A stretch of DNA of 64,000 nt. Origin: Methanocellales archaeon (lineage in GTDB: Archaea; Halobacteriota; UBA148). The notes below the pieces were generated by a model. That model was not told the origin of the DNA. It saw nothing but the letters and a program-made list of their open reading frames with translations, and searched no databases. The translations under genes and the position numbers were made by a program. Shown here one piece after another: positions 1 through 62,735 of the stretch (position 1 is its first letter; every line of letters starts with the position of its first letter). Location: contig JAQUQR010000001.1 in the NCBI GenBank assembly GCA_028715985.1, positions 125,927 through 189,926 of the forward strand, written 5' to 3'.

Positions 1-858
1 GACGAGGCTATTTGGCTTGCACAGCATGGTTTGACTGTAATGACCTTTGGCGACATGCTCAGGGTTCCTGGGACCAAGATGTCACTTTCGGATGCGAAAG
101 CAACCGGCGGAGACGTACGTATCGTTTACAGTGTTACCGATGCGGTGAAGATGGCAACGAAAGAGCCTGATAAGAGTTTTGTCTTCTTTGCGATAGGCTT
201 TGAGACAACAGCGCCAACGGTTGCCGCCGAGATTCTGAGGGGTCCGCCTAAAAATCTAAGCTTTCTCACCGCACATAGGCTGATTCCACCGGCGATGAAA
301 CTCCTCTTGGGCACCAAGGACATTCAGATAGATGGCTTCATTTGTCCGGGCCATGTGGCGACTATTATCGGAGCTGATGCATTCAGCATATTTCCTCAGA
401 CCCACAATATGCCCACAGTTGTAGCCGGATTTGAGCCCATGGATATCCTGATGGCAGTTCTCATGCTACTGAAACAGATGAAATATGGTGCCAGACTTGA
501 CAACGAATACTCCCGTTCAGTAACCAAAGAGGGCAACGTTAAAGCCCAGGGCATTCTCAAAGAGGTTTTCGACGTGGTTGACGGATGTTGGAGGGGGATT
601 GGAAGCATTCCGTCTTCGGCATATAGGTTAAAGGATGAATTTGCCGATTGCGATGCGCGCCTCAGATATGATATTAAAACAGAATCAGCAAGGGATATGG
701 TGCCCGGCTGTAGCTGTCATTTGGTCATCTTGGGAAAAATAAATCCTTCTTCATGCCCAATGTTCCTGAAAGCGTGCAGGCCTGAGCACCCACTGGGACC
801 TTGCATGGTCTCCCATGAGGGCACTTGTAATATCTGGTCGAGGCATGCCCAGCTCTAG
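1..858 (+). CDS. hypD: Hydrogenase maturation factor HypD, 5'-truncated at the window edge.
   Basis: FAIGFETTAP and CPGHV motifs, with a C-terminal Cys cluster. The reading frame is open from base 1, upstream of the first Met. Confidence 0.75.
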   Translation, partial: DEAIWLAQHGLTVMTFGDMLRVPGTKMSLSDAKATGGDVRIVYSVTDAVKMATKEPDKSFVFFAIGFETTAPTVAAEILRGPPKNLSFLTAHRLIPPAMKLLLGTKDIQIDGFICPGHVATIIGADAFSIFPQTHNMPTVVAGFEPMDILMAVLMLLKQMKYGARLDNEYSRSVTKEGNVKAQGILKEVFDVVDGCWRGIGSIPSSAYRLKDEFADCDARLRYDIKTESARDMVPGCSCHLVILGKINPSSCPMFLKACRPEHPLGPCMVSHEGTCNIWSRHAQL

Positions 859-994
859 GATTTCCGGATCGTTAATAGTAGATCGTTAATATTGATATGT
901 TAGGTAAGCTAATGAGGCAGGTAAGCCACTTATAACCCCAGAAGGAAAAGTTAAAACTTTTATAGACCATAGTTTTATCCTAAGTAGAGCATAT

Positions 995-1315
995 GTGATT
1001 GACCATGGAGGGAAGCATTTGGAGAAACTATATTTCTGTGGCTATGATGTAAAGAAAGATATGGATAAAGTGTTGGAGAACGACCTCCTCAAGCGAACAG
1101 GCTACACAGTTCGAGAATGCAAGTTACTGGAATCTGATCGTAAAGGGTACTTTTTGTACATATCTGGAACGCCTAAGAAACTCAAAGAAATCAGTGAGTT
1201 ATTTGCTGATTTGCCGATAGAGAAGCTCATAGGGAGGGAGGCTAAGCAGATAATCAAAAAGATCCAGGCTGAAGAGGATTCGGCTGCAACAGGTATGGGA
1301 ATGATATTTGGATAG
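995..1315 (+). CDS. Hypothetical small protein of 106 aa.
   Basis: Intact ORF with no recognisable motif. Confidence 0.4.
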   Translation: MIDHGGKHLEKLYFCGYDVKKDMDKVLENDLLKRTGYTVRECKLLESDRKGYFLYISGTPKKLKEISELFADLPIEKLIGREAKQIIKKIQAEEDSAATGMGMIFG

Positions 1316-1635
1316 AGTAAATCCAAATCATTCCTTCTTCATTTAAATTTTATTTTTTTACAGCTCTCACTATGTTCCTTCTCACTATATCCATATCCTG
1401 CTATAACCCTTCTTTTAACCAAATAACCTCCCTATAGTCTCTTTAACTAAACACTTCTAAAAAACGACCTCGTAGAAGATATAAGGCATTTCTTGGGGTT
1501 TTCAGGTCTTTAGACTACCTTCTCGGAGAGAGAAATGCAAGAGAGCGCAAATATAGAAGGAGTTATTCCAAGACTTGAGGCGGCATAGGATAGATGTCCA
1601 TCCTACTGCATTTTTTCTGTCTGTATAGCCTATAT

Positions 1636-2418
1636 CTATTGCTCTACTGAAGTTGGCTGACTCTTGGTAGCTTTTGAAGTTTTAACTTGTCTCCGTTTAG
1701 CAGGTAAGCATATCTTGGTTTTATCCATTTCAATGAGTGCGGCTTCATTCAACAGGTGGCGGAAAGCTCCAACAATATCTTCTGGGGACACAGATATGCC
1801 AGTATCTTTCTTTATTCCGCGCTGGAACCTCCTTATCGATTCTTCCGATAATACGGTCTTTAGAAGATTGAGAGCGGTTAACACATTTCTTTTTTGCCAC
1901 AATTTGTCCAATCCTTGCTTTTTAAGATTTTTATAGCTGACTATTTCAAACTTCTGAGCTAAGACCATTAGGTTATCATTTAACAAGTCCCAAGATTCTA
2001 TCAATTTAGTCTGAGGGGGTTGACCGAATGTAATGTGATAAAGTTTCCATTCTTTACTATTGGTTAGCAATATCCATTCACAGCCAATATCAATAGCATA
2101 GGATGCCGCCTGTCTGATGTGTTTTGTGGAGAGGTCAATATTCACCCTTTTAACTTCAATGAGTACATCTGGCTTTGATGTCTCTTCATGACCGAGTTGG
2201 ATGGCAATATCACAATGTACAGCATCCCCAGTCCCATGAATTGCATACTCCTGTGTGATATGTTTGAAAGTGTCATATCCCATAAGATTTTCAAGGATAT
2301 GGTCTATACGTTTGCGTGTTTCCGCTTCATTACTATCAGCTTTTGCAATCGCTTCTACTAAACTACGAGCATATAAGATGGCTTTCTTGGTTGCTTTATC
2401 AAGGCTAGGTTTAGGCAT
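1636..2418 (-). CDS. PD-(D/E)xK nuclease with an HsdR-N-like N-terminal domain (type I restriction enzyme R N-terminal / Mrr-like).
   Basis: N-terminal SNEAETRKRIDHIL resembles the HsdR_N signature. D..IAI followed by LIEVKR gives a D-EVK catalytic arrangement. The C-terminal ~130 aa are unassigned. Confidence 0.55.
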   Translation of the reverse strand: MPKPSLDKATKKAILYARSLVEAIAKADSNEAETRKRIDHILENLMGYDTFKHITQEYAIHGTGDAVHCDIAIQLGHEETSKPDVLIEVKRVNIDLSTKHIRQAASYAIDIGCEWILLTNSKEWKLYHITFGQPPQTKLIESWDLLNDNLMVLAQKFEIVSYKNLKKQGLDKLWQKRNVLTALNLLKTVLSEESIRRFQRGIKKDTGISVSPEDIVGAFRHLLNEAALIEMDKTKICLPAKRRQVKTSKATKSQPTSVEQ

Positions 2419-2601
2419 GGGTTACCTCCTCAATACTTCTTCCAGTTACCGACTGGCATATGTAATATTATATTGTTAACTTTTAAAGGTTCGTTTAATT
2501 ATACATCTGGTTTCGGTGGGAATTTTGTTACTAGATAGGGTATAAGAAAGGTATTTTAAACACAAATATCTGATTATATAAATTAGTGGAGAAGGGGTGA
2601 A

Positions 2602-3768
2602 ATGAACTATAACTGGCAAAAATATAAGGGGTGGATCATATGCATAATCATAACATTGGCAGTCTTTTTAATCTTGTATTACGCCTCTCCAAACACAGAT
2701 CAAGACAATGCAAGATACATATTAAGTGCGATCTCTCAGGGCTTGGCTGCCATACTTGCTTTGGTGTTTACGATTACGTTGGTAGTAGCTCAGATGACGA
2801 GAAGATACACGGCGATGGATAAGATCATATTTAGACGTGGAACCATCGGTTTAATGATTATTTTTGGATTAGGGGTTGTCACACCACTTTTAGTTCTTAA
2901 AGCAGGCTTCTGGGAATTGGGTGTAAATTTCTCAATTGCTCTTGCGGCTTTCTGCGTCTTTTCATTAATTCCATTTTTAAAAGACGTTAATAGCATATTG
3001 AAATATGAGATTGGAGCTGAGAATCTATATACAGAGTGTATAAACGCAATTAATTCAGGGTATGAAACAGAGACATCGGGCATCATCTTTGAATTGGGTG
3101 AGATTGTCAAAGGCGCAGTTAAAGAATCTTGTGAAGATGCGGTAGTAAATATAATATTTTATTTATCACAAATAGGCAAAAAATGTGCCGAAAAGAGATG
3201 GGTAGATGAGACTTGGTTGGTTATAGATAACTTAACACGTATTGGAGTCTATAGCGTTGGAAGGATATTTACATGGGCGACAAAGCCTACAGTCCGTGGA
3301 TTAAAAAATATCGGTGTTATGGCTGCTAAAAATAGATTGGAGGGTGCTTTCCTCCAAAGTAGGGATTTTCTGGCTGAAGAAGCCATCAATGGGTTAAAAA
3401 AGATCGGGATTAAAGCTGCTGAGATTAAAGCTGATGAGAAGGGGTTTAATAAAATATACGGTGGATCCGCTCGTGTTGCTGAAGATTTAAAGACCGCTTG
3501 CATGGGAGTCTCAATGGGCGGCATAATTGACATTTGCATGAAATTAGAAGATAAACATTTAGCTGTAAATGAGCTGTGGTGGGTAGGTGCATTTGTGACG
3601 AAATACTTACCTAAAAATAGTGATATAGCCATCCAAAGTCTTAAAGAAATAGAAGAAGATATCGGTAAGGGTGGATTGATGTATGGGGCGAAAAATTGTA
3701 CACGTGGCTACCCTCAACTAGAAGCCTCTTTGGAAGACTTTAAAGAGCAATATAACAAAAATACTTAA
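2602..3768 (+). CDS. Hypothetical membrane protein with about 4 N-terminal TM helices and a ~240 aa soluble domain.
   Basis: Hydrophobic segments within aa 10-130 and no recognised catalytic motif. Divergent from the neighbouring nuclease gene. Confidence 0.5.
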   Translation: MNYNWQKYKGWIICIIITLAVFLILYYASPNTDQDNARYILSAISQGLAAILALVFTITLVVAQMTRRYTAMDKIIFRRGTIGLMIIFGLGVVTPLLVLKAGFWELGVNFSIALAAFCVFSLIPFLKDVNSILKYEIGAENLYTECINAINSGYETETSGIIFELGEIVKGAVKESCEDAVVNIIFYLSQIGKKCAEKRWVDETWLVIDNLTRIGVYSVGRIFTWATKPTVRGLKNIGVMAAKNRLEGAFLQSRDFLAEEAINGLKKIGIKAAEIKADEKGFNKIYGGSARVAEDLKTACMGVSMGGIIDICMKLEDKHLAVNELWWVGAFVTKYLPKNSDIAIQSLKEIEEDIGKGGLMYGAKNCTRGYPQLEASLEDFKEQYNKNT

Positions 3769-3799
3769 TTCCAATACTAAAAAAGAAGTTTATTTTTTA

Positions 3800-5101
3800 T
3801 CACCCCTCTAACTTCAGCCCATACTCATCCAATCGCTCTTTTGCGCGTTCCCGTCCCTCCTGATGCTCCCTCAAAAATTTAATCATTAGTTCTGCAGCGA
3901 GCGACTTGCAACTCCCGCAGGTGCGTTTACCCTCCTTACATTCAGTGAATATCTCTGCCATATGGGCATCATCCTCTATCAAATGGAAAAGCAACAGTTC
4001 ATAGACCGTACATTTTTGGGGTTCACCGCCCAATTTGCGTTGATCCGTTAGGGTCACCCGCCCTCCAGTCTTTGCTTTCTTAACCTTTTCCGCTGCAACA
4101 TCGGGGGATTCTGTGAGAGCGATTATGCTGTCGGGAGAGCTGCTCGACATCTTCCCTCCCGTCAGTCCGCTCATAAAGCGATGATATATAGAGGAAGGAA
4201 GGATTAACCCGTATCCACCATGCTCAATTTCCACGGCCCGTACAACCGATTCGATCTTCCTTACGTCTTTATTGTCATAAATGTCCACGTGCTCGGCATA
4301 AATTTTCACGTCACCCTCCAAGCTATCAGCTATTTCATACATTGCCTCTTTGTTAGGGTGCTTTGCCCTGACGCTAATGTAATCCTCGCGTTGTTCCACT
4401 TTGAACATCCTCATCCGGCTTGCTATGTCCCGCGTAAGTCTGATATGGGGGTCTTGGTCAAATCCTACAGGAATCACAACTGGTTTGGGTCCCCCATATG
4501 CCTTCAGCTGTGGATGGAGGATATCCGCGCTTTGAACAAGCGCACTTACCATATGTGATATATGGGTCTCGCCGGAAAAACCATAGATTGCGCTCATCTC
4601 AGAGAGATTTGCCTCTACACCTAACTCAAAGGCCAGATCTTTGACAAAGGTGTCTTTCGATTGAAAATAGATCCTACCATTCGGTTCAAATCCGAGTGCT
4701 ATCACGCTAAGGACATACTCGTTGATGCCCCTCTCAGTGCATTCTTTCCATGGGATCCCTCGCACGGCATGCGCCTCCATGTCAGCTATTCCGAAGAATG
4801 CGTCTGCGCCCATCCGTTGGTGCCATATGATCTCATCCATCACCATCTTATGTCCTAGGTGCACCGGACCGGATGGCATAAATCCGCTCATGACGCCGAA
4901 GGGCTGATTTGAATGCATCGCATCCAAAATGGGTTGATAATCGCGATGGCCAAAGATTATTTGCCTTCTCATGTATAGGTGTGGATTGGGCACCTCTGCC
5001 AACAGATCCCCGAAAGGGGATACGCCAAACTCATCAAATAACTTAGAATAATCTTCTATGAAATTCGTGCTCCATGGATTGAGCTTTATTTTCCGCATCA
5101 T
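3800..5101 (-). CDS. trpS: Tryptophan--tRNA ligase, archaeal type.
   Basis: Class I aaRS motifs PSGPVHLGH and KMSSS. Its 433 aa size and adjacency to endA are typical for archaeal TrpRS. Confidence 0.8.
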
Positions 5102-6157: not shown

Positions 6158-6229
6158 TGGACTCGGCGGGATTTGAACCCGCGGCCCCCGCGCTGCGAAC
6201 GTGGTGCTCTTCCACTGAGCTACGAGCCC
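6158..6229 (-). tRNA. tRNA-Ala (anticodon CGC).
   Basis: Cloverleaf with a G3:U70 wobble in the acceptor stem, which is the Ala identity element. Anticodon loop is TTCGCAG and T-arm is GCGGGTTCAAATCCCGC. No CCA is encoded. Confidence 0.8.
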
Positions 6230-33516: not shown

Positions 33517-33981
33517 CTATTTACGATAAGATAAATCTTCATTCATTTTATTTACGATGTCTCTAATCTGTTTTGAACTAATAATTAACATATAAATAAA
33601 GAATATGTAAGTTAAAAAAAACAAAATCAAATACTCTGTATTTACCATATCAGCTGATAAAAGGACCAGGTAACCTATCGTTAACATAAATAATATGAAA
33701 AGCCACATAGTGGTAGTATTTAGGATTCCCCTATTATTTTTTAAATTATACCAACTGTCCAAGTAAGATTTATAGTTCTCAATCTTCTCTCTGCTAACGT
33801 CTTCAGCCTCAGCCAAATTCTTGGTTTCTGTAATTAGAACTTCATTGAAGTATTTTGTTTCAATTTCATCGAGTTCCTTTTCGCTTCTCTGTAATAGGAA
33901 TTTTCTTGCACTGAATAAAGCAGCACCTATGACTGCTAATATTGCACCTCCCCCAAATAATATAGTAGACGTGTCAACCAT
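33517..33981 (-). CDS. Hypothetical membrane protein.
   Basis: N-terminal and C-terminal TM helices, 154 aa. Confidence 0.4.
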   Translation of the reverse strand: MVDTSTILFGGGAILAVIGAALFSARKFLLQRSEKELDEIETKYFNEVLITETKNLAEAEDVSREKIENYKSYLDSWYNLKNNRGILNTTTMWLFILFMLTIGYLVLLSADMVNTEYLILFFLTYIFFIYMLIISSKQIRDIVNKMNEDLSYRK

Positions 33982-57012: not shown

Positions 57013-57444
57013 TTACTTAAGCCTTCTAAGAATCCATTTGCCATTCTTATATTGATATGGCTCAGACCAATTATCAGCGTACGCTTTTTTTAAATCTGCT
57101 TCACTATCAACCATTAGCGTTTCATAATCTGGGGGCGATACTGCAATACTTAAATTCGAAACATCATTTTCACTTGCCTCAGAAATAACCGTCGCAACGT
57201 CTTTCGCCCAAACATCATATGGTTTAGTTATGCCTTTAGAATCTTTCATAAGAACTATCCAATTGTTTTCTATGCCTTTTTTTCCTGCAATTTCAAGTTC
57301 AACAGGAATTGTTTTTAAAATTGCATCAAGTCCTAAAACTTGCGTACCAGGAAGATTTACAGCCAACATTTTAATATTGCCAAAAGTAATCTTAATCGCT
57401 CTATTTTTAGCCAAAACTTCGTAAGAGGTCTCTTCATCAGGCAT
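57013..57444 (-). CDS. Hypothetical protein of 143 aa.
   Basis: Intact ORF with no recognisable motif. Confidence 0.4.
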   Translation of the reverse strand: MPDEETSYEVLAKNRAIKITFGNIKMLAVNLPGTQVLGLDAILKTIPVELEIAGKKGIENNWIVLMKDSKGITKPYDVWAKDVATVISEASENDVSNLSIAVSPPDYETLMVDSEADLKKAYADNWSEPYQYKNGKWILRRLK

Positions 57445-60995: not shown

Positions 60996-61940
60996 TCAAA
61001 ACCATTTTCTCTTTTTAAAGTAAAGAACCATAGATGCACTCAACAAAATCATAATAAAAATCATTATCCAAAAACCGTATATAAAACTTGAACCTGGCAG
61101 ATTTGTAAAATTAGTTCCATAAATTCCTGAAATTACGGTTAAGGGCAAAGCAATTGTAGCAATAATACTCAATACTTTCATTACTTCATTCATGCTATTG
61201 GAAACAGCTGACATATATGCGTCAAAAGTATTGCCTACAGCTTCCCTATAATTGTCAATGGAATCTGAAACTTTTATTGAATGATCGTAAATGTCTCTGA
61301 AATAAGGAATGGCATTTTGGGGTATGAACTTGTAGTCATTTTTAGCAAGAAATGATATTTTCTCCCTCTGTGGTAATGTGATCTTTTTTATTTCTACTAT
61401 CTGCCTTTTTAACTTGAGGGTACTGCTTAACAATTCGGGTTTTGGCTTTTTTGCTATCTCTTCTTCAATGGTTTCAATTAAGTCGTCAATCTTTTCCAAT
61501 GCGGGAAAATAATTATCAACTTCATTATCCAAGAGCTTATGGAAAAGAAAAACATTTCCTTTTTCGAATAGTTCGCTTAACCTCTCTTTATCATTTTTTA
61601 ATTTATTATAGGATTCAATATCCTTTTTATGATTGGTTATTAGAAAGTTATCTCCTATTATATAATCCAATTCAACCATTTCAATGGATTCTAGGCTTGC
61701 TATTCCATAGAACACGCAAAATAAATAATGTGGAAAATCTTCAACTTTCACCCTAATATTTGAGTTAAAAAGGTCTTCAGCAGTCAATGGATGAAGCTCA
61801 AATGTTTTTTGTATTAGCTCTTTCTCTTCTTCAGAAATATCCGTAATATCGATCCATAATTGTTTATTTTTGATATTTTTTAAATCTGAAATTTTAGCTT
61901 TTTGTACACCGTTTTCATAAAAAAATATCTCTATCATCAA
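60996..61940 (-). CDS. CorA-family divalent cation transporter with a GTN motif in place of GMN.
   Basis: CorA-like cytoplasmic domain and two C-terminal TM helices, with YGTNF at the position of the canonical YGMNF. Confidence 0.65.
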   Translation of the reverse strand: MMIEIFFYENGVQKAKISDLKNIKNKQLWIDITDISEEEKELIQKTFELHPLTAEDLFNSNIRVKVEDFPHYLFCVFYGIASLESIEMVELDYIIGDNFLITNHKKDIESYNKLKNDKERLSELFEKGNVFLFHKLLDNEVDNYFPALEKIDDLIETIEEEIAKKPKPELLSSTLKLKRQIVEIKKITLPQREKISFLAKNDYKFIPQNAIPYFRDIYDHSIKVSDSIDNYREAVGNTFDAYMSAVSNSMNEVMKVLSIIATIALPLTVISGIYGTNFTNLPGSSFIYGFWIMIFIMILLSASMVLYFKKRKWF

Positions 61941-62096
61941 GTAAAGTTATTGTTTGTATATTATATATAAATCTTTTTTTATGTGAGTAGGGCTGAAGAA
62001 TCATCCAAGGAATGGCTATTTTAAAATATATTTTTGGAACGTTAAACCTTTCTTTGATTAAGGTTTTTGAGTGACCAGATCATTCATAAAAAATAG

Positions 62097-62735
62097 TTAA
62101 GATCCAATCTGGCAAGACTCAAACCATTCGACGTTTAACAGGGTCTTATGGATTTTTTTGATACGTTCCTTTGGTCCCTCTATTAAGAATGTTGAGGAAA
62201 GCTCCCCCTTTTCCTTATTTATTTCTAAAGTTATCAACTTATATTTTTTCACTCCGTTTTCTTTTAAAACTGCGATTATCTCTTTTTCGTCAATTATTTT
62301 ATTCGTACACACAACTATTTTTTGTTGGTAGGAGCCTATCCCTTTTTTAGCAAGAATTTGGTCAAATAGGATGACCACCCAGATTATCATATAGAGATTA
62401 AACCCAATCCGATACTGCCCAAGGCCAATAATGAGACCTAAAATTGCAAATAACCAAATACTGGCTGCTGTTGTGAATCCAAAAATTTTATCGGTAGTTC
62501 TTATTAATGCACCAGCACCTAAGAATCCAATACCTGTTACGATGGCTCCAAGTAAAGGAAATGGATTAGTAGAGTCTACATCCATTGCTATTATTGCTAA
62601 AGCACAAGAGCCCGCAGATACAAAAATGAAAGTGCCAAATCCGATTGGTTTATGGGACCTCTGCCTTTCTAGACCAAATATTAATGCCATTATGAAGGTG
62701 ATAGTTAGTCTTAAGATTATTATGGAAGTTTTCAT
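62097..62735 (-). CDS. mgtC: MgtC/SapB family membrane protein.
   Basis: MgtC N-terminal TM domain (LERQ motif region), 212 aa. Confidence 0.75.
   Translation of the reverse strand: MKTSIIILRLTITFIMALIFGLERQRSHKPIGFGTFIFVSAGSCALAIIAMDVDSTNPFPLLGAIVTGIGFLGAGALIRTTDKIFGFTTAASIWLFAILGLIIGLGQYRIGFNLYMIIWVVILFDQILAKKGIGSYQQKIVVCTNKIIDEKEIIAVLKENGVKKYKLITLEINKEKGELSSTFLIEGPKERIKKIHKTLLNVEWFESCQIGS

What the first reader, a model, noticed from the sequence alone, without database searches (positions are those of the whole stretch)
995..3768. AT-rich three-gene island between hypD and trpS: small protein, HsdR-N-like PD-(D/E)xK nuclease and a 4-TM membrane protein
The segment between two conserved housekeeping genes is conspicuously more AT-rich than its flanks and carries genes with no core function. 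The 260-aa protein begins with an HsdR-N-type motif (SNEAETRKRIDHIL...D-IAI...LIEVKR), which is a standalone restriction-endonuclease-like domain, plus an unassigned ~130-aa C-terminal domain. Divergently transcribed from a shared 180-bp region is a 388-aa protein with 4 TM helices and a large unassigned soluble domain. The nuclease plus membrane-protein pairing and the compositional deviation fit a horizontally acquired defence-type module, though the function is unknown.
Basis: partly seen in the sequence, partly recalled or inferred. Interest (0 to 1): 0.55.

Follow-up and report, generated by a model that had tools for sequence, protein, structure and literature searches.

The report
Variable slot with two unrelated accessory genes
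Between two housekeeping genes of a methanogen-related archaeon lies a swap-prone slot holding two separately acquired genes, a stand-alone restriction-type DNA nuclease of bacterial or phage origin and a membrane-anchored helical-repeat protein; they are not a conserved pair, and the small third gene is a resident core gene.

Summary
The three ORFs exist as described. The 260-aa protein is a true HSDR_N_2 PD-(D/E)xK nuclease with all catalytic residues intact. The 388-aa protein has 4 TM helices and a cytoplasmic HEAT-like solenoid. The "three-gene island / nuclease + membrane module" reading holds only in part.

- **Small gene.** It probably starts at TTG 1019 (98 aa). It is a lineage-conserved, syntenic core gene, not cargo.
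- **Variable slot.** Only 1360-3732 is variable. Related Methanocellales carry nothing, HicAB, or a DEAD-helicase cluster at the same place.
- **Two unlinked genes.** The nuclease family (>1000 homologues) turns up in Dehalococcoidia and in proviruses, and is always solitary. The membrane family is confined to ANME/Methanosarcinales-type archaea. Neither gene is found beside the other in about 29 other loci. A relative keeps an 18-codon stump of the membrane gene.
- **Composition.** The bias is mild: gene GC z = -1.1 and -1.45, and codon usage is unremarkable.

Most likely the nuclease is a mobile, solitary restriction-like defence nuclease, and the membrane protein is a defence-island cassette of unknown action.

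Two side observations are more novel. The small protein ends in a near-invariant ribosomal-stalk-like tail. In ANME contigs the membrane gene sits in cassette arrays punctuated by ~200-bp copies of a type IIG RM gene's 3' end.

The parts
1019..1315 (+). Conserved small protein, 98 aa from TTG 1019 (the mechanical ORF starts at GTG 995). Core and syntenic, NOT cargo. Ends in AEEDSAATGMGMIFG, a ribosomal-stalk-like tail.
   Evidence: The family of 110 proteins is limited to Methanocellales, Methanoperedens and Methanosarcinales. The gene holds the same position next to hypD or pheS in L014, L016 and L017. The tail is near-invariant. TTG 1019 is preceded by a GGAGGG Shine-Dalgarno sequence. No Pfam, NCBIfam, PHROG or PDB match.
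1360..3732 (.). Variable slot. This is the only stretch not shared with close relatives.
   Evidence: blastn: homology to L014 (91-93% nt) stops at 1359 and resumes at 3733; homology to L016 (88-91%) stops at 1314 and resumes at 3815. The slot holds other cargo in L014 and L017 and is empty in L016.
1360..1611 (.). Non-coding filler of unknown origin between the small gene's conserved downstream sequence and the nuclease segment.
   Evidence: No similarity to any fetched locus. No Rfam match. No convincing repeats.
1612..2430 (-). DNA segment homologous to the Dehalococcoidia nuclease loci. It comprises the gene, 12 nt upstream (which include the GGAGGT Shine-Dalgarno sequence) and 24 nt of formerly coding 3' sequence beyond a premature stop.
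   Evidence: blastn gives 76-78% identity to L006, L010 and L018 over window 1612-2430 (L013: 1612-2422) and nothing beyond. Homologues are 12-16 aa longer at the C-terminus.
1636..2418 (-). Stand-alone HSDR_N_2 PD-(D/E)xK nuclease, 260 aa.
2029..2337 (-). Nuclease core (residues 28-130). Catalytic residues are E31, D70, E88-x-K90 and Q103-xxx-Y107.
   Evidence: All six residues are invariant in 41 sequences. They lie on the helix 1 / strand 2 / strand 3 / helix elements of the model.
1699..2013 (-). Family-specific all-helical C-terminal domain (residues 136-240), followed by a basic, disordered tail.
   Evidence: Helices 150-233 in the model. A search of 1.84 billion representatives finds this domain only at about residues 130-245 of HSDR_N_2 proteins, or in fragments.
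2419..2601 (.). 183-bp divergent intergenic region. It has AT-rich TATA-like stretches for both genes. 2431-2579 is of unknown origin.
   Evidence: Sequence. Homology to the nuclease donors ends at 2430, and homology to the membrane-gene loci begins at about 2580. Promoters are inferred by eye only.
2602..3768 (+). 388-aa membrane protein: 4 TM helices (2602-2982) and a cytoplasmic HEAT-like alpha-solenoid (2983-3765).
3733..3799 (.). The last 12 codons of the membrane gene plus the 31-nt spacer to trpS. Relative L014 also has this stretch, as a gene stump.
   Evidence: L014 12521-12574 encodes PQDKFTIEEFKKQYNKNT*, matching residues 371-388. The membrane gene therefore predates the split of the two genomes and was later overwritten in L014.

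Best explanation
Window 1360-3732 is a variable accessory slot. It lies between a conserved small gene and trpS in one Methanocellales lineage. It holds two single-gene elements that arrived separately and have no demonstrable functional link.

**(1) The 260-aa nuclease.** The protein is a free-standing version of the nuclease domain found at the N-terminus of type I HsdR and type IIG restriction enzymes. Its metal-binding and catalytic set is complete (E31, D70, E88-x-K90, Q103xxxY107). A helical C-terminal domain unique to this family follows.
- The family is under purifying selection and is always solitary. It is AT-rich relative to 14 of the 16 host loci measured; the two provirus contigs are the exceptions.
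- It is found in Dehalococcoidia chromosomes, on plasmids and in proviruses.
- In a provirus and in a temperate Thermus phage the gene sits directly behind the CI-like repressor.
- The archaeal copy is nested in that bacterial and phage radiation. It arrived as a gene-sized piece of DNA.
- Inferred function: a solitary restriction-type endonuclease with no cognate methyltransferase, type IV-like or otherwise self-sparing. It would cut incoming DNA and protect the host or lysogen. The helical domain would supply dimerisation and/or DNA recognition.

**(2) The 388-aa membrane protein.** It is anchored by four very conserved TM helices. It exposes a fast-evolving HEAT-like solenoid to the cytoplasm.
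- Elsewhere it is a recurrent cassette in ANME-type defence arrays next to type IIG RM genes. Those arrays also carry OLD-like, HEPN, Schlafen/AlbA_2, HicAB and PIN-like (by sequence inspection) genes.
- Inferred function, weakly supported: a membrane-bound defence or exclusion factor. The variable solenoid would bind an invader component and the conserved membrane core would be the effector.

**What is shown and what is inferred.** Shown: the anatomy, the catalytic motif, the fold, the slot polymorphism, the lack of co-occurrence, the host ranges and the contexts. Inferred: nuclease activity, a defence role, the direction of transfer and any action of the membrane protein.
For: **Slot polymorphism.** The slot is empty in L016. 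It holds HicB-HicA in L017. In L014 it holds a 367-aa ORF, DUF2798 and a DEAD helicase.

**Nuclease**
- Pfam match; invariant catalytic residues.
- dN/dS 0.10-0.25.
- Gene GC is 38-46% against 45-56% for 14 bacterial host loci.
- DNA homology is limited to 1612-2430.
- No neighbour is shared across all 15 loci.
- Hosts are Dehalococcoidia, Chloroflexota and one Zixibacteria.
- The window protein is nested in the NJ tree.
- phrog_17239 full-length match; phage structural hit.
- Provirus L045 and Thermus phage Riverbug place the gene right after an HTH + Peptidase_S24 repressor.
- Plasmid copies sit beside TA genes.
- Longer relatives add RAMA, DUF4268, DUF5655 or DUF2924. RAMA and DUF4268 are tied in the literature to restriction and type IV enzymes (PMC4738411, PMC4619093, bioRxiv 10.1101/2025.02.28.640651).

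**Membrane protein**
- Model and fold; conservation split between TM core and solenoid.
- Contexts: type IIG RM in L030, L036 and L038; OLD-like TOPRIM in L033; HEPN and HicAB-like in L038; Schlafen/AlbA_2 in L036.
Against: - No biochemical or genetic data exist for either family.
- PADLOC gives only sub-threshold hits for the nuclease and none for the membrane protein.
- This nuclease lacks any recognisable modified-DNA reader domain, so 'type IV' is by exclusion.
- The strong conservation (about 70-80% identity across the family) is unusual for a defence gene. It would also suit a conserved housekeeping or selfish role.
- The closest relatives (79-82%: P0002, P0003) are on contigs whose host I could not determine. 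Bacteria-to-archaea direction therefore rests on all identifiable hosts being bacterial or phage.
- dS of 1.2-1.4 to the nearest available loci means the donor is unsampled or the transfer is old.
- Several membrane-family loci lie among housekeeping genes (L031, L032) or in other operons: transglutaminase in L050, AAA ATPase in L052.
- The cargo of the sister slot in L014 (a DEAD-box helicase) is not obviously defensive, so the slot is a general variable site rather than a dedicated defence hotspot.
Confidence: 0.6

Rival explanations
1. One reading: the nuclease and the membrane protein form one two-gene defence module, with a membrane sensor or anchor and a nuclease effector, transcribed divergently from a shared control region.
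For: The genes are divergent around a 183-bp region. In three other loci the membrane-family gene lies downstream, on the same strand, of a type IIG enzyme whose N-terminal nuclease is also of HSDR_N type. In L030 the two ORFs overlap by 17 nt; in L038 and L036 they lie within 2-5 kb. This echoes a nuclease-membrane association.
Against: No neighbour is shared across the 15 compared nuclease loci, and no fetched nuclease locus shows similarity to the membrane gene. None of the 13 other membrane loci has the solo nuclease. Host ranges are disjoint. The intervening 149 bp (2431-2579) belongs to neither gene's homology block. L014 keeps a stump of the membrane gene and no trace of the nuclease. 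The type IIG association is explained by cassette arrays that also hold many unrelated genes.
Confidence: 0.08
2. The 260-aa nuclease is not a defence gene but a DNA repair or recombination enzyme, such as a junction- or flap-cleaving nuclease, that is useful to its hosts.
Against: The gene is AT-rich relative to its locus in all 14 bacterial loci measured, and sits at non-homologous positions. It is carried by proviruses in the lysogeny module and by plasmids. Relatives are fused to RAMA or DUF4268 reader-type domains. The best structural matches are restriction-enzyme nuclease domains, not resolvases. It is absent from closely related Methanocellales.
Confidence: 0.1
3. The nuclease is a toxin-type or abortive-infection effector, held in check by its own C-terminal domain or by an unrecognised antitoxin. 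Rpn nucleases with intragenic antitoxins would be the analogue.
For: It has a two-domain layout with an N-terminal PD-(D/E)xK domain and a C-terminal helical domain. There are weak hits to Tox-REase-7 (E 0.038) and to a PADLOC DRT-associated PDDEXK model (E 2e-4). Plasmid copies lie next to TA genes.
Against: There is no conserved neighbouring small gene. There is no conserved internal Met with a ribosome-binding site in the alignment (by inspection). All the hits cited are below any curated threshold.
Confidence: 0.1
4. The 388-aa protein is an ordinary membrane protein of the DUF2254 type, with a structural, transport-related or scaffold role. Its defence-island neighbours are coincidental.
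For: Weak DUF2254 similarity over the TM region (some homologues carry precomputed PF10011 hits). L031 and L032 lie among housekeeping genes. L050 is operonic with a transglutaminase-core protein. No PADLOC hit and no enzyme-like fold.
Against: Ten of 14 distinct loci have the type IIG 3'-end repeat next to the gene. The neighbours include OLD-like, HEPN, Schlafen/AlbA_2 and HicAB-like genes. The gene shows presence/absence polymorphism, with a stump in L014. The pattern of a conserved core with a variable repeat domain is typical of sensor-effector proteins.
Confidence: 0.25

Closest known systems
N-terminal nuclease domains of type I HsdR (EcoR124I, PDB 2w00; 3h1t) and of type IIG/IIL enzymes (BpuSI 3s1s, DrdV 7lo5); Pfam HSDR_N_2 (PF13588) / COG2810 'predicted type IV restriction endonuclease'
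   Different: There is no helicase/translocase motor, no methyltransferase and no specificity domain. There are no hsdM or hsdS neighbours. Instead the protein has a roughly 100-aa helical domain found only in this family. No activity has been tested.
Single-protein modification-dependent defence nucleases (e.g. MdgA and MdgB, nuclease + DUF4268; GmrSD with DUF4268; RAMA-fused restriction nucleases)
   Same: One-gene nuclease with no methyltransferase, carried on mobile DNA. Remote relatives of the window protein with the same nuclease + CTD core carry DUF4268 or RAMA at the C-terminus.
   Different: The window protein has no reader domain. I could not compare sequences with MdgA or MdgB. Modification dependence is untested.
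Prophage-encoded defence 'morons' in the lysogeny module (genes co-located with the CI repressor)
   Same: In provirus L045 and in Thermus phage Riverbug a homologue lies directly downstream of an HTH + Peptidase_S24 repressor. There is a full-length PHROG family.
   Different: In the window there is no prophage, integrase or repressor. The gene sits alone in a chromosomal slot of an archaeon.
Core-gene-flanked defence or accessory hotspots described in bacterial pan-genomes (own knowledge)
   Same: The flanking core genes are the same while the cargo differs among relatives: empty, HicAB, a helicase cluster, or nuclease + membrane gene.
   Different: It is seen here in only four archaeal MAGs. 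There is no integrase, flanking direct repeats or adjacent tRNA. Not all the cargo is defensive.
DUF2254 (PF10011) predicted membrane proteins
   Same: Weak similarity over the four-helix membrane region.
   Different: The score is below the gathering threshold, and the soluble domain is a HEAT-like solenoid with no match to the profile. DUF2254 itself has no known function.
C-terminal tail of archaeal aP1 and eukaryotic P1/P2 stalk proteins (comparison for the small protein only)
   Same: An acidic run is followed by G-M-G-M-I-F-G at the very C-terminus. Aligned from the end, it matches aP1 E96, L103 (M here), L106 (I here), F107 and G108. L103, L106 and F107 are required for aEF1A and aEF2 binding (PMC4267659). 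The tail is the most conserved part of the family.
   Different: The N-terminal part appears, by inspection of the sequence, to mix strand- and helix-like segments, unlike the helical P1 dimerisation domain as I recall it. There is no Ribosomal_60s Pfam hit and no long Ala/Lys/Glu hinge. Binding is untested.

Membership tests
HSDR_N_2 (PF13588) PD-(D/E)xK nuclease domain | Profile score above Pfam's gathering threshold | tested here: met
   49.2 bits against 25, E 6.5e-13, residues 31-130.
HSDR_N_2 (PF13588) PD-(D/E)xK nuclease domain | Catalytic D...(D/E)xK plus the QxxxY motif | tested here: met
   D70, E88, K90, Q103 and Y107 (and E31) are invariant in 41 family members. They lie on the expected secondary-structure elements of the model.
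HSDR_N_2 (PF13588) PD-(D/E)xK nuclease domain | Restriction-endonuclease fold resembling HsdR and type IIG nuclease domains | tested here: met
Type I restriction enzyme (HsdR subunit) | SF2 translocase motor domains in the same polypeptide | tested here: not met
   The protein is 260 aa and has no helicase domain by Pfam.
Type I restriction enzyme (HsdR subunit) | hsdM / hsdS genes nearby | tested here: not met
   Neither flank of the window locus encodes one. No neighbour is shared across the 15 homologous loci, and no methyltransferase appears in the annotated ones.
Type IV (modification-dependent) restriction endonuclease | Nuclease without a cognate methyltransferase | tested here: met
   The gene is solitary everywhere it was examined.
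Type IV (modification-dependent) restriction endonuclease | A domain that reads modified bases (SRA, RAMA, DUF4268 and the like) | tested here: not met
   The C-terminal domain has no Pfam match. Only longer remote relatives carry RAMA, DUF4268 or DUF5655.
Type IV (modification-dependent) restriction endonuclease | Cleavage that depends on DNA modification | not testable with these tools
   Needs biochemistry.
Catalogued anti-phage systems (PADLOC-DB 2.0) | Significant match to a system component | tested here: not met
   Nuclease: only weak hits (DRT-associated PDDEXK E 2e-4, type I MTase E 0.01). Membrane protein and small protein: none.
Two-gene operon or module (nuclease + membrane protein) | Conserved neighbourhood across genomes | tested here: not met
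   No co-occurrence in any fetched nuclease-family locus or in 13 other membrane-family loci.
Horizontally acquired island / variable slot | Presence/absence or cargo polymorphism between related genomes with conserved flanks | tested here: met
   L014, L016 and L017 compared with the window.
Horizontally acquired island / variable slot | Integrase, flanking direct repeats or a tRNA target | tested here: not met
   There is no integrase ORF. The nearest tRNA (Ala, 6158-6229) is 2.4 kb away. Only short, chance-level repeats are present.
Horizontally acquired island / variable slot | Deviant base composition or codon usage | tested here: inconclusive
   GC z = -1.1 and -1.45; GC3 z = -1.4; codon-usage distance is unremarkable.
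DUF2254 (PF10011) | Profile score above the gathering threshold | tested here: not met
   22.7 bits against 28.8, covering the TM region only. Some homologues have precomputed PF10011 hits.
Ribosomal stalk P1/P2 (Ribosomal_60s) - small protein | Profile match / helical N-terminal dimerisation domain | tested here: not met
   No Pfam hit to Ribosomal_60s. The N-terminal sequence is not helical-only by inspection.
Ribosomal stalk P1/P2 (Ribosomal_60s) - small protein | Conserved acidic/hydrophobic C-terminal factor-binding tail ending in (L/I)F(G/D) | tested here: met
   AEE[DE][SN]AA[TS]GMGMIFG is near-invariant in 23 aligned members. It was mapped to the aP1 residues in PMC4267659.

The most novel reading that the evidence does not exclude
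The small gene inside the finding (1019-1315) may encode a free, non-ribosomal protein carrying a ribosomal-stalk-type C-terminal tail. Such a protein could bind the translational GTPases (aEF1A, aEF2, aIF5B) or ABCE1 off the ribosome. It could then act as a stalk mimic, either a decoy or regulator or a delivery factor. It occurs in the Methanocellales, Methanoperedens and Methanosarcinales lineages. It is embedded among translation genes: pheST, trpS, endA, EF-1beta, a ribosomal-protein gene (Pfam Ribosomal_aS21) and an IF-2B-like gene.

Separately, the membrane-protein family may be cargo of an integron-like cassette system in ANME archaea. That system would use the 3' end of a type IIG restriction gene as its repeat.
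Probability: 0.25. Interest if true: 0.75.

Novelty: new member of a known kind. Interest (0 to 1): 0.35.

Why it matters
As stated, the finding is an ordinary accessory slot. Its value is mostly corrective: composition and adjacency suggested a module, and comparative data show there is none.

It does document an apparent bacterium- or phage-to-archaeon transfer of a gene-sized nuclease cassette. It also defines a large, tightly conserved and experimentally untouched family of solitary HsdR-type nucleases that would be easy to test.

The side observations could matter more:
- A conserved archaeal small protein with a stalk-type factor-binding tail would be a new kind of translation regulator.
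- Repeat-punctuated cassette arrays behind type IIG RM genes would be a new way for archaea to assemble defence islands.

Tried and rejected
- **RNA and repeats in the segment.** An Rfam scan of 800-4000 at E<=1 found nothing. The direct and inverted repeat search of 800-4000 gave only short, imperfect pairs with no att-like flanks.
- **tRNA as integration target.** The nearest tRNA is 2.4 kb away, beyond trpS and endA.
- **Paralogues.** None of the three proteins has a paralogue in the 64-kb window.
- **L014 cargo.** Its 367-aa protein is not a homologue of the 388-aa protein. It has only a faint, sub-threshold SIR2 hit.
- **PDB sequence searches.** The nuclease and small-protein profiles gave nothing significant.
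- **Family libraries.** NCBIfam found nothing meaningful for any of the three proteins. PADLOC found nothing above noise.
- **Membrane family in IMG/VR viral contigs.** None found.
- **Type IIG 3'-end repeat.** An nhmmer profile search found no copy in the window or in the sister loci L014, L016 and L017. The repeat has no ssDNA hairpin like an integron attC (z = 0.31).
- **Small protein as a paralogue of aEF1-beta.** hhalign probability 0.2%, so rejected.
- **Source names for the closest nuclease homologues.** No names on record.
- **afdb50 fold library.** Not available.


Full report
**Source and reliability.** The window is the reverse complement of part of contig JAQUXB010000001.1 (372 kb) of a Methanocellales archaeon MAG, GCA_028692575.1. 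An independent Logan assembly (L002, 3,689 bp) spans trpS - 388-aa gene - 260-aa gene - small gene - hypD. Three shorter Logan contigs from sister runs carry the nuclease gene with the membrane gene. The arrangement is therefore not an assembly or binning chimera.

**Observation.**
- The ORFs are as described, and the flanks are HypD and TrpRS followed by the tRNA-splicing endonuclease.
- The 260-aa protein matches Pfam HSDR_N_2 well above threshold.
- The 388-aa protein has four TM helices and a long helical soluble domain. The family alignment supports the start at 2602, so the 317-aa GenBank call is truncated.
- The small ORF most likely starts at TTG 1019, behind a GGAGGG Shine-Dalgarno sequence, giving the family-typical 98 aa.
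- The compositional claim is weak. The segment is 38.2% GC against 42.8% for the window (9th percentile of same-size windows). The gene-level GC z-scores are -1.1 and -1.45, GC3 z is -1.4, and codon usage is unremarkable.
- The flanking hypD and trpS are unusually GC-rich. Ordinary genes such as CorA and MgtC are far more AT-rich.

**The slot.**
- Three related Methanocellales contigs share the flanks at 88-93% nucleotide identity (L014, L016) or 69% (L017).
- Homology to L014 ends at 1359 and resumes at 3733. Homology to L016 ends at 1314 and resumes at 3815.
- Between the conserved small gene and trpS, L016 has only about 375 bp of spacer. L017 has HicB-HicA. L014 has a 367-aa ORF, a DUF2798 protein, a DEAD-box helicase and a 44-aa ORF.
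- The small gene is therefore resident, and only 1360-3732 is variable.
- L014 retains the last 18 codons of a membrane-family gene directly abutting the trpS spacer (PQDKFTIEEFKKQYNKNT*). The membrane gene therefore predates the split of the two genomes and was later overwritten.
- There is no integrase, att-like repeat or adjacent tRNA.

**The nuclease.**
- The search returned 1,032 homologues, the best 120 at 68-82% identity over the full length.
- Every host that could be named is bacterial: Dehalococcoidia or Dehalococcoidales, Chloroflexota and one Zixibacteria. Contexts with SecG, DprA and bacterial topoisomerase I agree.
- In a rough NJ tree the archaeal protein is nested within this diversity.
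- Across 15 loci the only shared gene is the nuclease itself.
- Gene GC is 38-46% against 45-56% for 14 bacterial host loci. The two provirus copies (L045, L046) are the exceptions, with the gene more GC-rich than its locus.
- Nucleotide homology to the window is confined to 1612-2430. That is the ORF, 12 nt upstream including the Shine-Dalgarno sequence, and 24 nt that are coding in the longer homologues.
- dN/dS is 0.10-0.25 and dS is 1.2-1.4 to the nearest loci. The protein is functional, but the actual donor is unsampled or the transfer is not recent.
- E31, D70, E88, K90, Q103 and Y107 are invariant.
- The helical C-terminal domain occurs only behind HSDR_N_2 domains.
- Longer relatives append RAMA, DUF4268, DUF5655 or DUF2924. 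RAMA and DUF4268 have been proposed as recognition modules of restriction and type IV enzymes (PMC4738411; PMC4619093; bioRxiv 10.1101/2025.02.28.640651).
- The family is also phage-borne:
  - a full-length PHROG match, phrog_17239, E 6e-37;
  - a BFVD structural match;
  - two IMG/VR proviruses;
  - in provirus L045 and in Thermus phage Riverbug the gene follows directly an HTH + Peptidase_S24 repressor;
  - more distant two-domain homologues sit on Leptospira and Arthrobacter plasmids beside toxin-antitoxin genes.
- I infer a solitary restriction-type defence nuclease. It cannot be filed as type I, since it has no motor and no M or S subunits. It cannot be filed as a demonstrated type IV enzyme, since it has no reader domain and no assay has been done.

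**The membrane protein.**
- The search returned 193 homologues at 40-65% identity, all from ANME-1, ANME-2c, Methanosarcinales or Methanocellales where named.
- The model shows a four-helix membrane anchor. The positive-inside distribution, by inspection, puts the rest in the cytoplasm. An alpha-solenoid follows that matches only HEAT-like and designed repeat proteins.
- The membrane core is much more conserved than the solenoid: median pairwise identity 73% against 43%. TM2 plus the inner loop reach 91% column identity.
- Contexts vary:
  - overlapping the 3' end of a type IIG Eco57I/MmeI-like enzyme and followed by a PemK toxin gene (L030);
  - within 2-5 kb of homologous type IIG genes, with HicAB-like and HEPN genes (L038) or a Schlafen/AlbA_2 gene (L036);
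  - next to an OLD-like TOPRIM protein and a PIN-like pair (L033);
  - behind a transglutaminase-core gene (L050);
  - inside an AAA-ATPase cluster (L052);
  - among housekeeping genes (L031, L032).
- None of these loci has the solo nuclease. A defence or exclusion role is plausible by association only.

**Cassette arrays (outside the window).**
- In 10 of 14 distinct membrane-gene loci the gene is bordered by a repeat of about 200 bp. The repeat copies the last 50-70 codons of the type IIG RM gene (...LVYDLYGLTEEE...).
- Several such repeats separate unrelated cassettes in L033, L036 and L038.
- Copies are 74-91% identical both within and between loci. The copy that follows the membrane gene shares its upstream flank across loci, at 87-95%. 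This suggests a [gene + repeat] unit.
- The repeat is not structured as ssDNA, and it is absent from the window.

**The small protein.**
- Its family (110 proteins) has no database match.
- Its most conserved feature is the C-terminal AEE[DE][SN]AA[TS]GMGMIFG.
- Aligned from the C-terminus, this reproduces aP1 E96, L103 (M here), L106 (I here), F107 and G108. L103, L106 and F107 are the hydrophobic residues required for aEF1A and aEF2 binding (PMC4267659).
- It is not detectably related to aEF1-beta.

**Verdict.**
The genes are horizontally acquired and defence-flavoured. They are not a module.
- The nuclease is a new, untested member of a known kind.
- The locus itself is ordinary. The two side observations deserve their own follow-up.

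Noticed in passing
window 1019-1315 (+) (mechanical ORF from 995): A 98-aa protein conserved in Methanocellales, Methanoperedens and Methanosarcinales ends in a near-invariant AEE[DE][SN]AA[TS]GMGMIFG. This resembles the factor-binding C-terminal tail of the ribosomal stalk proteins aP1 and P1/P2, with equivalents of E96, L103, L106, F107 and G108. It lies among translation genes and has no database match. It may be a free stalk-tail mimic.
   Followed up: partly
L033 1134-1338, 3390-3582, 5892-6095; L036 667-870, 2658-2862, 4014-4207, 4709-4835; L038 3380-3583, 6435-6634; also L030, L031, L035, L037, L039, L040, L042: In ANME-type metagenome contigs, direct repeats of about 200 bp copy the 3' end of a type IIG (Eco57I/MmeI-like) RM gene. 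They punctuate arrays of unrelated cassettes: the membrane protein, an OLD-like TOPRIM protein, HEPN, Schlafen/AlbA_2, HicAB-like and PIN-like genes. The layout is integron-like, but the repeat has no hairpin and no recombinase was seen. There is none in the window.
   Followed up: partly
L030 6001-7443 (residues 298-385 of the 480-aa membrane homologue); L036 973-2763 (residues 419-506); L033 1361-3331(-) (residues 522-605): A segment of about 88 aa is shared at 45-62% identity by three otherwise unrelated proteins. One carries it as an insertion in the variable loop of the membrane-protein solenoid. In the L033 protein the region has a faint LAGLIDADG_2 hit. It may be a mobile insertion or a shared module.
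   Followed up: no
window 2602-3768 / GenBank annotation of JAQUXB010000001.1: The deposited annotation calls this gene as 317 aa. The family alignment shows the 388-aa start, so the truncated call loses TM1 and most of TM2.
   Followed up: yes
window 1612-1635: The archaeal nuclease gene has a stop about 12-16 codons earlier than most homologues, so the acidic ...EVEAILAEKQ... tail is lost. The ex-coding sequence is still recognisable downstream. One other family member (P0050) ends at the same place.
   Followed up: partly
L045 5321-10153: In an IMG/VR provirus the nuclease homologue sits in a row: CI-like repressor, nuclease, FRG-domain protein, a 767-aa DndB-like protein. This looks like a small prophage-borne defence cluster.
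   Followed up: partly
window 60996-62735, 33517-33981 and 57013-57444: The most AT-rich genes of the window are CorA (30% GC), MgtC (36%), a 154-aa ORF with a hydrophobic N-terminus and no significant family match (31%) and a 143-aa unknown (35% GC, GC3 25%, the most deviant codon usage). Low GC here is not a marker of defence cargo.
   Followed up: partly
L014 8703-9806 (-): The sister-genome slot carries a 367-aa protein with only a faint SIR2-like hit (E 0.004) next to a DEAD-box helicase. It could be another defence candidate or nothing.
   Followed up: no
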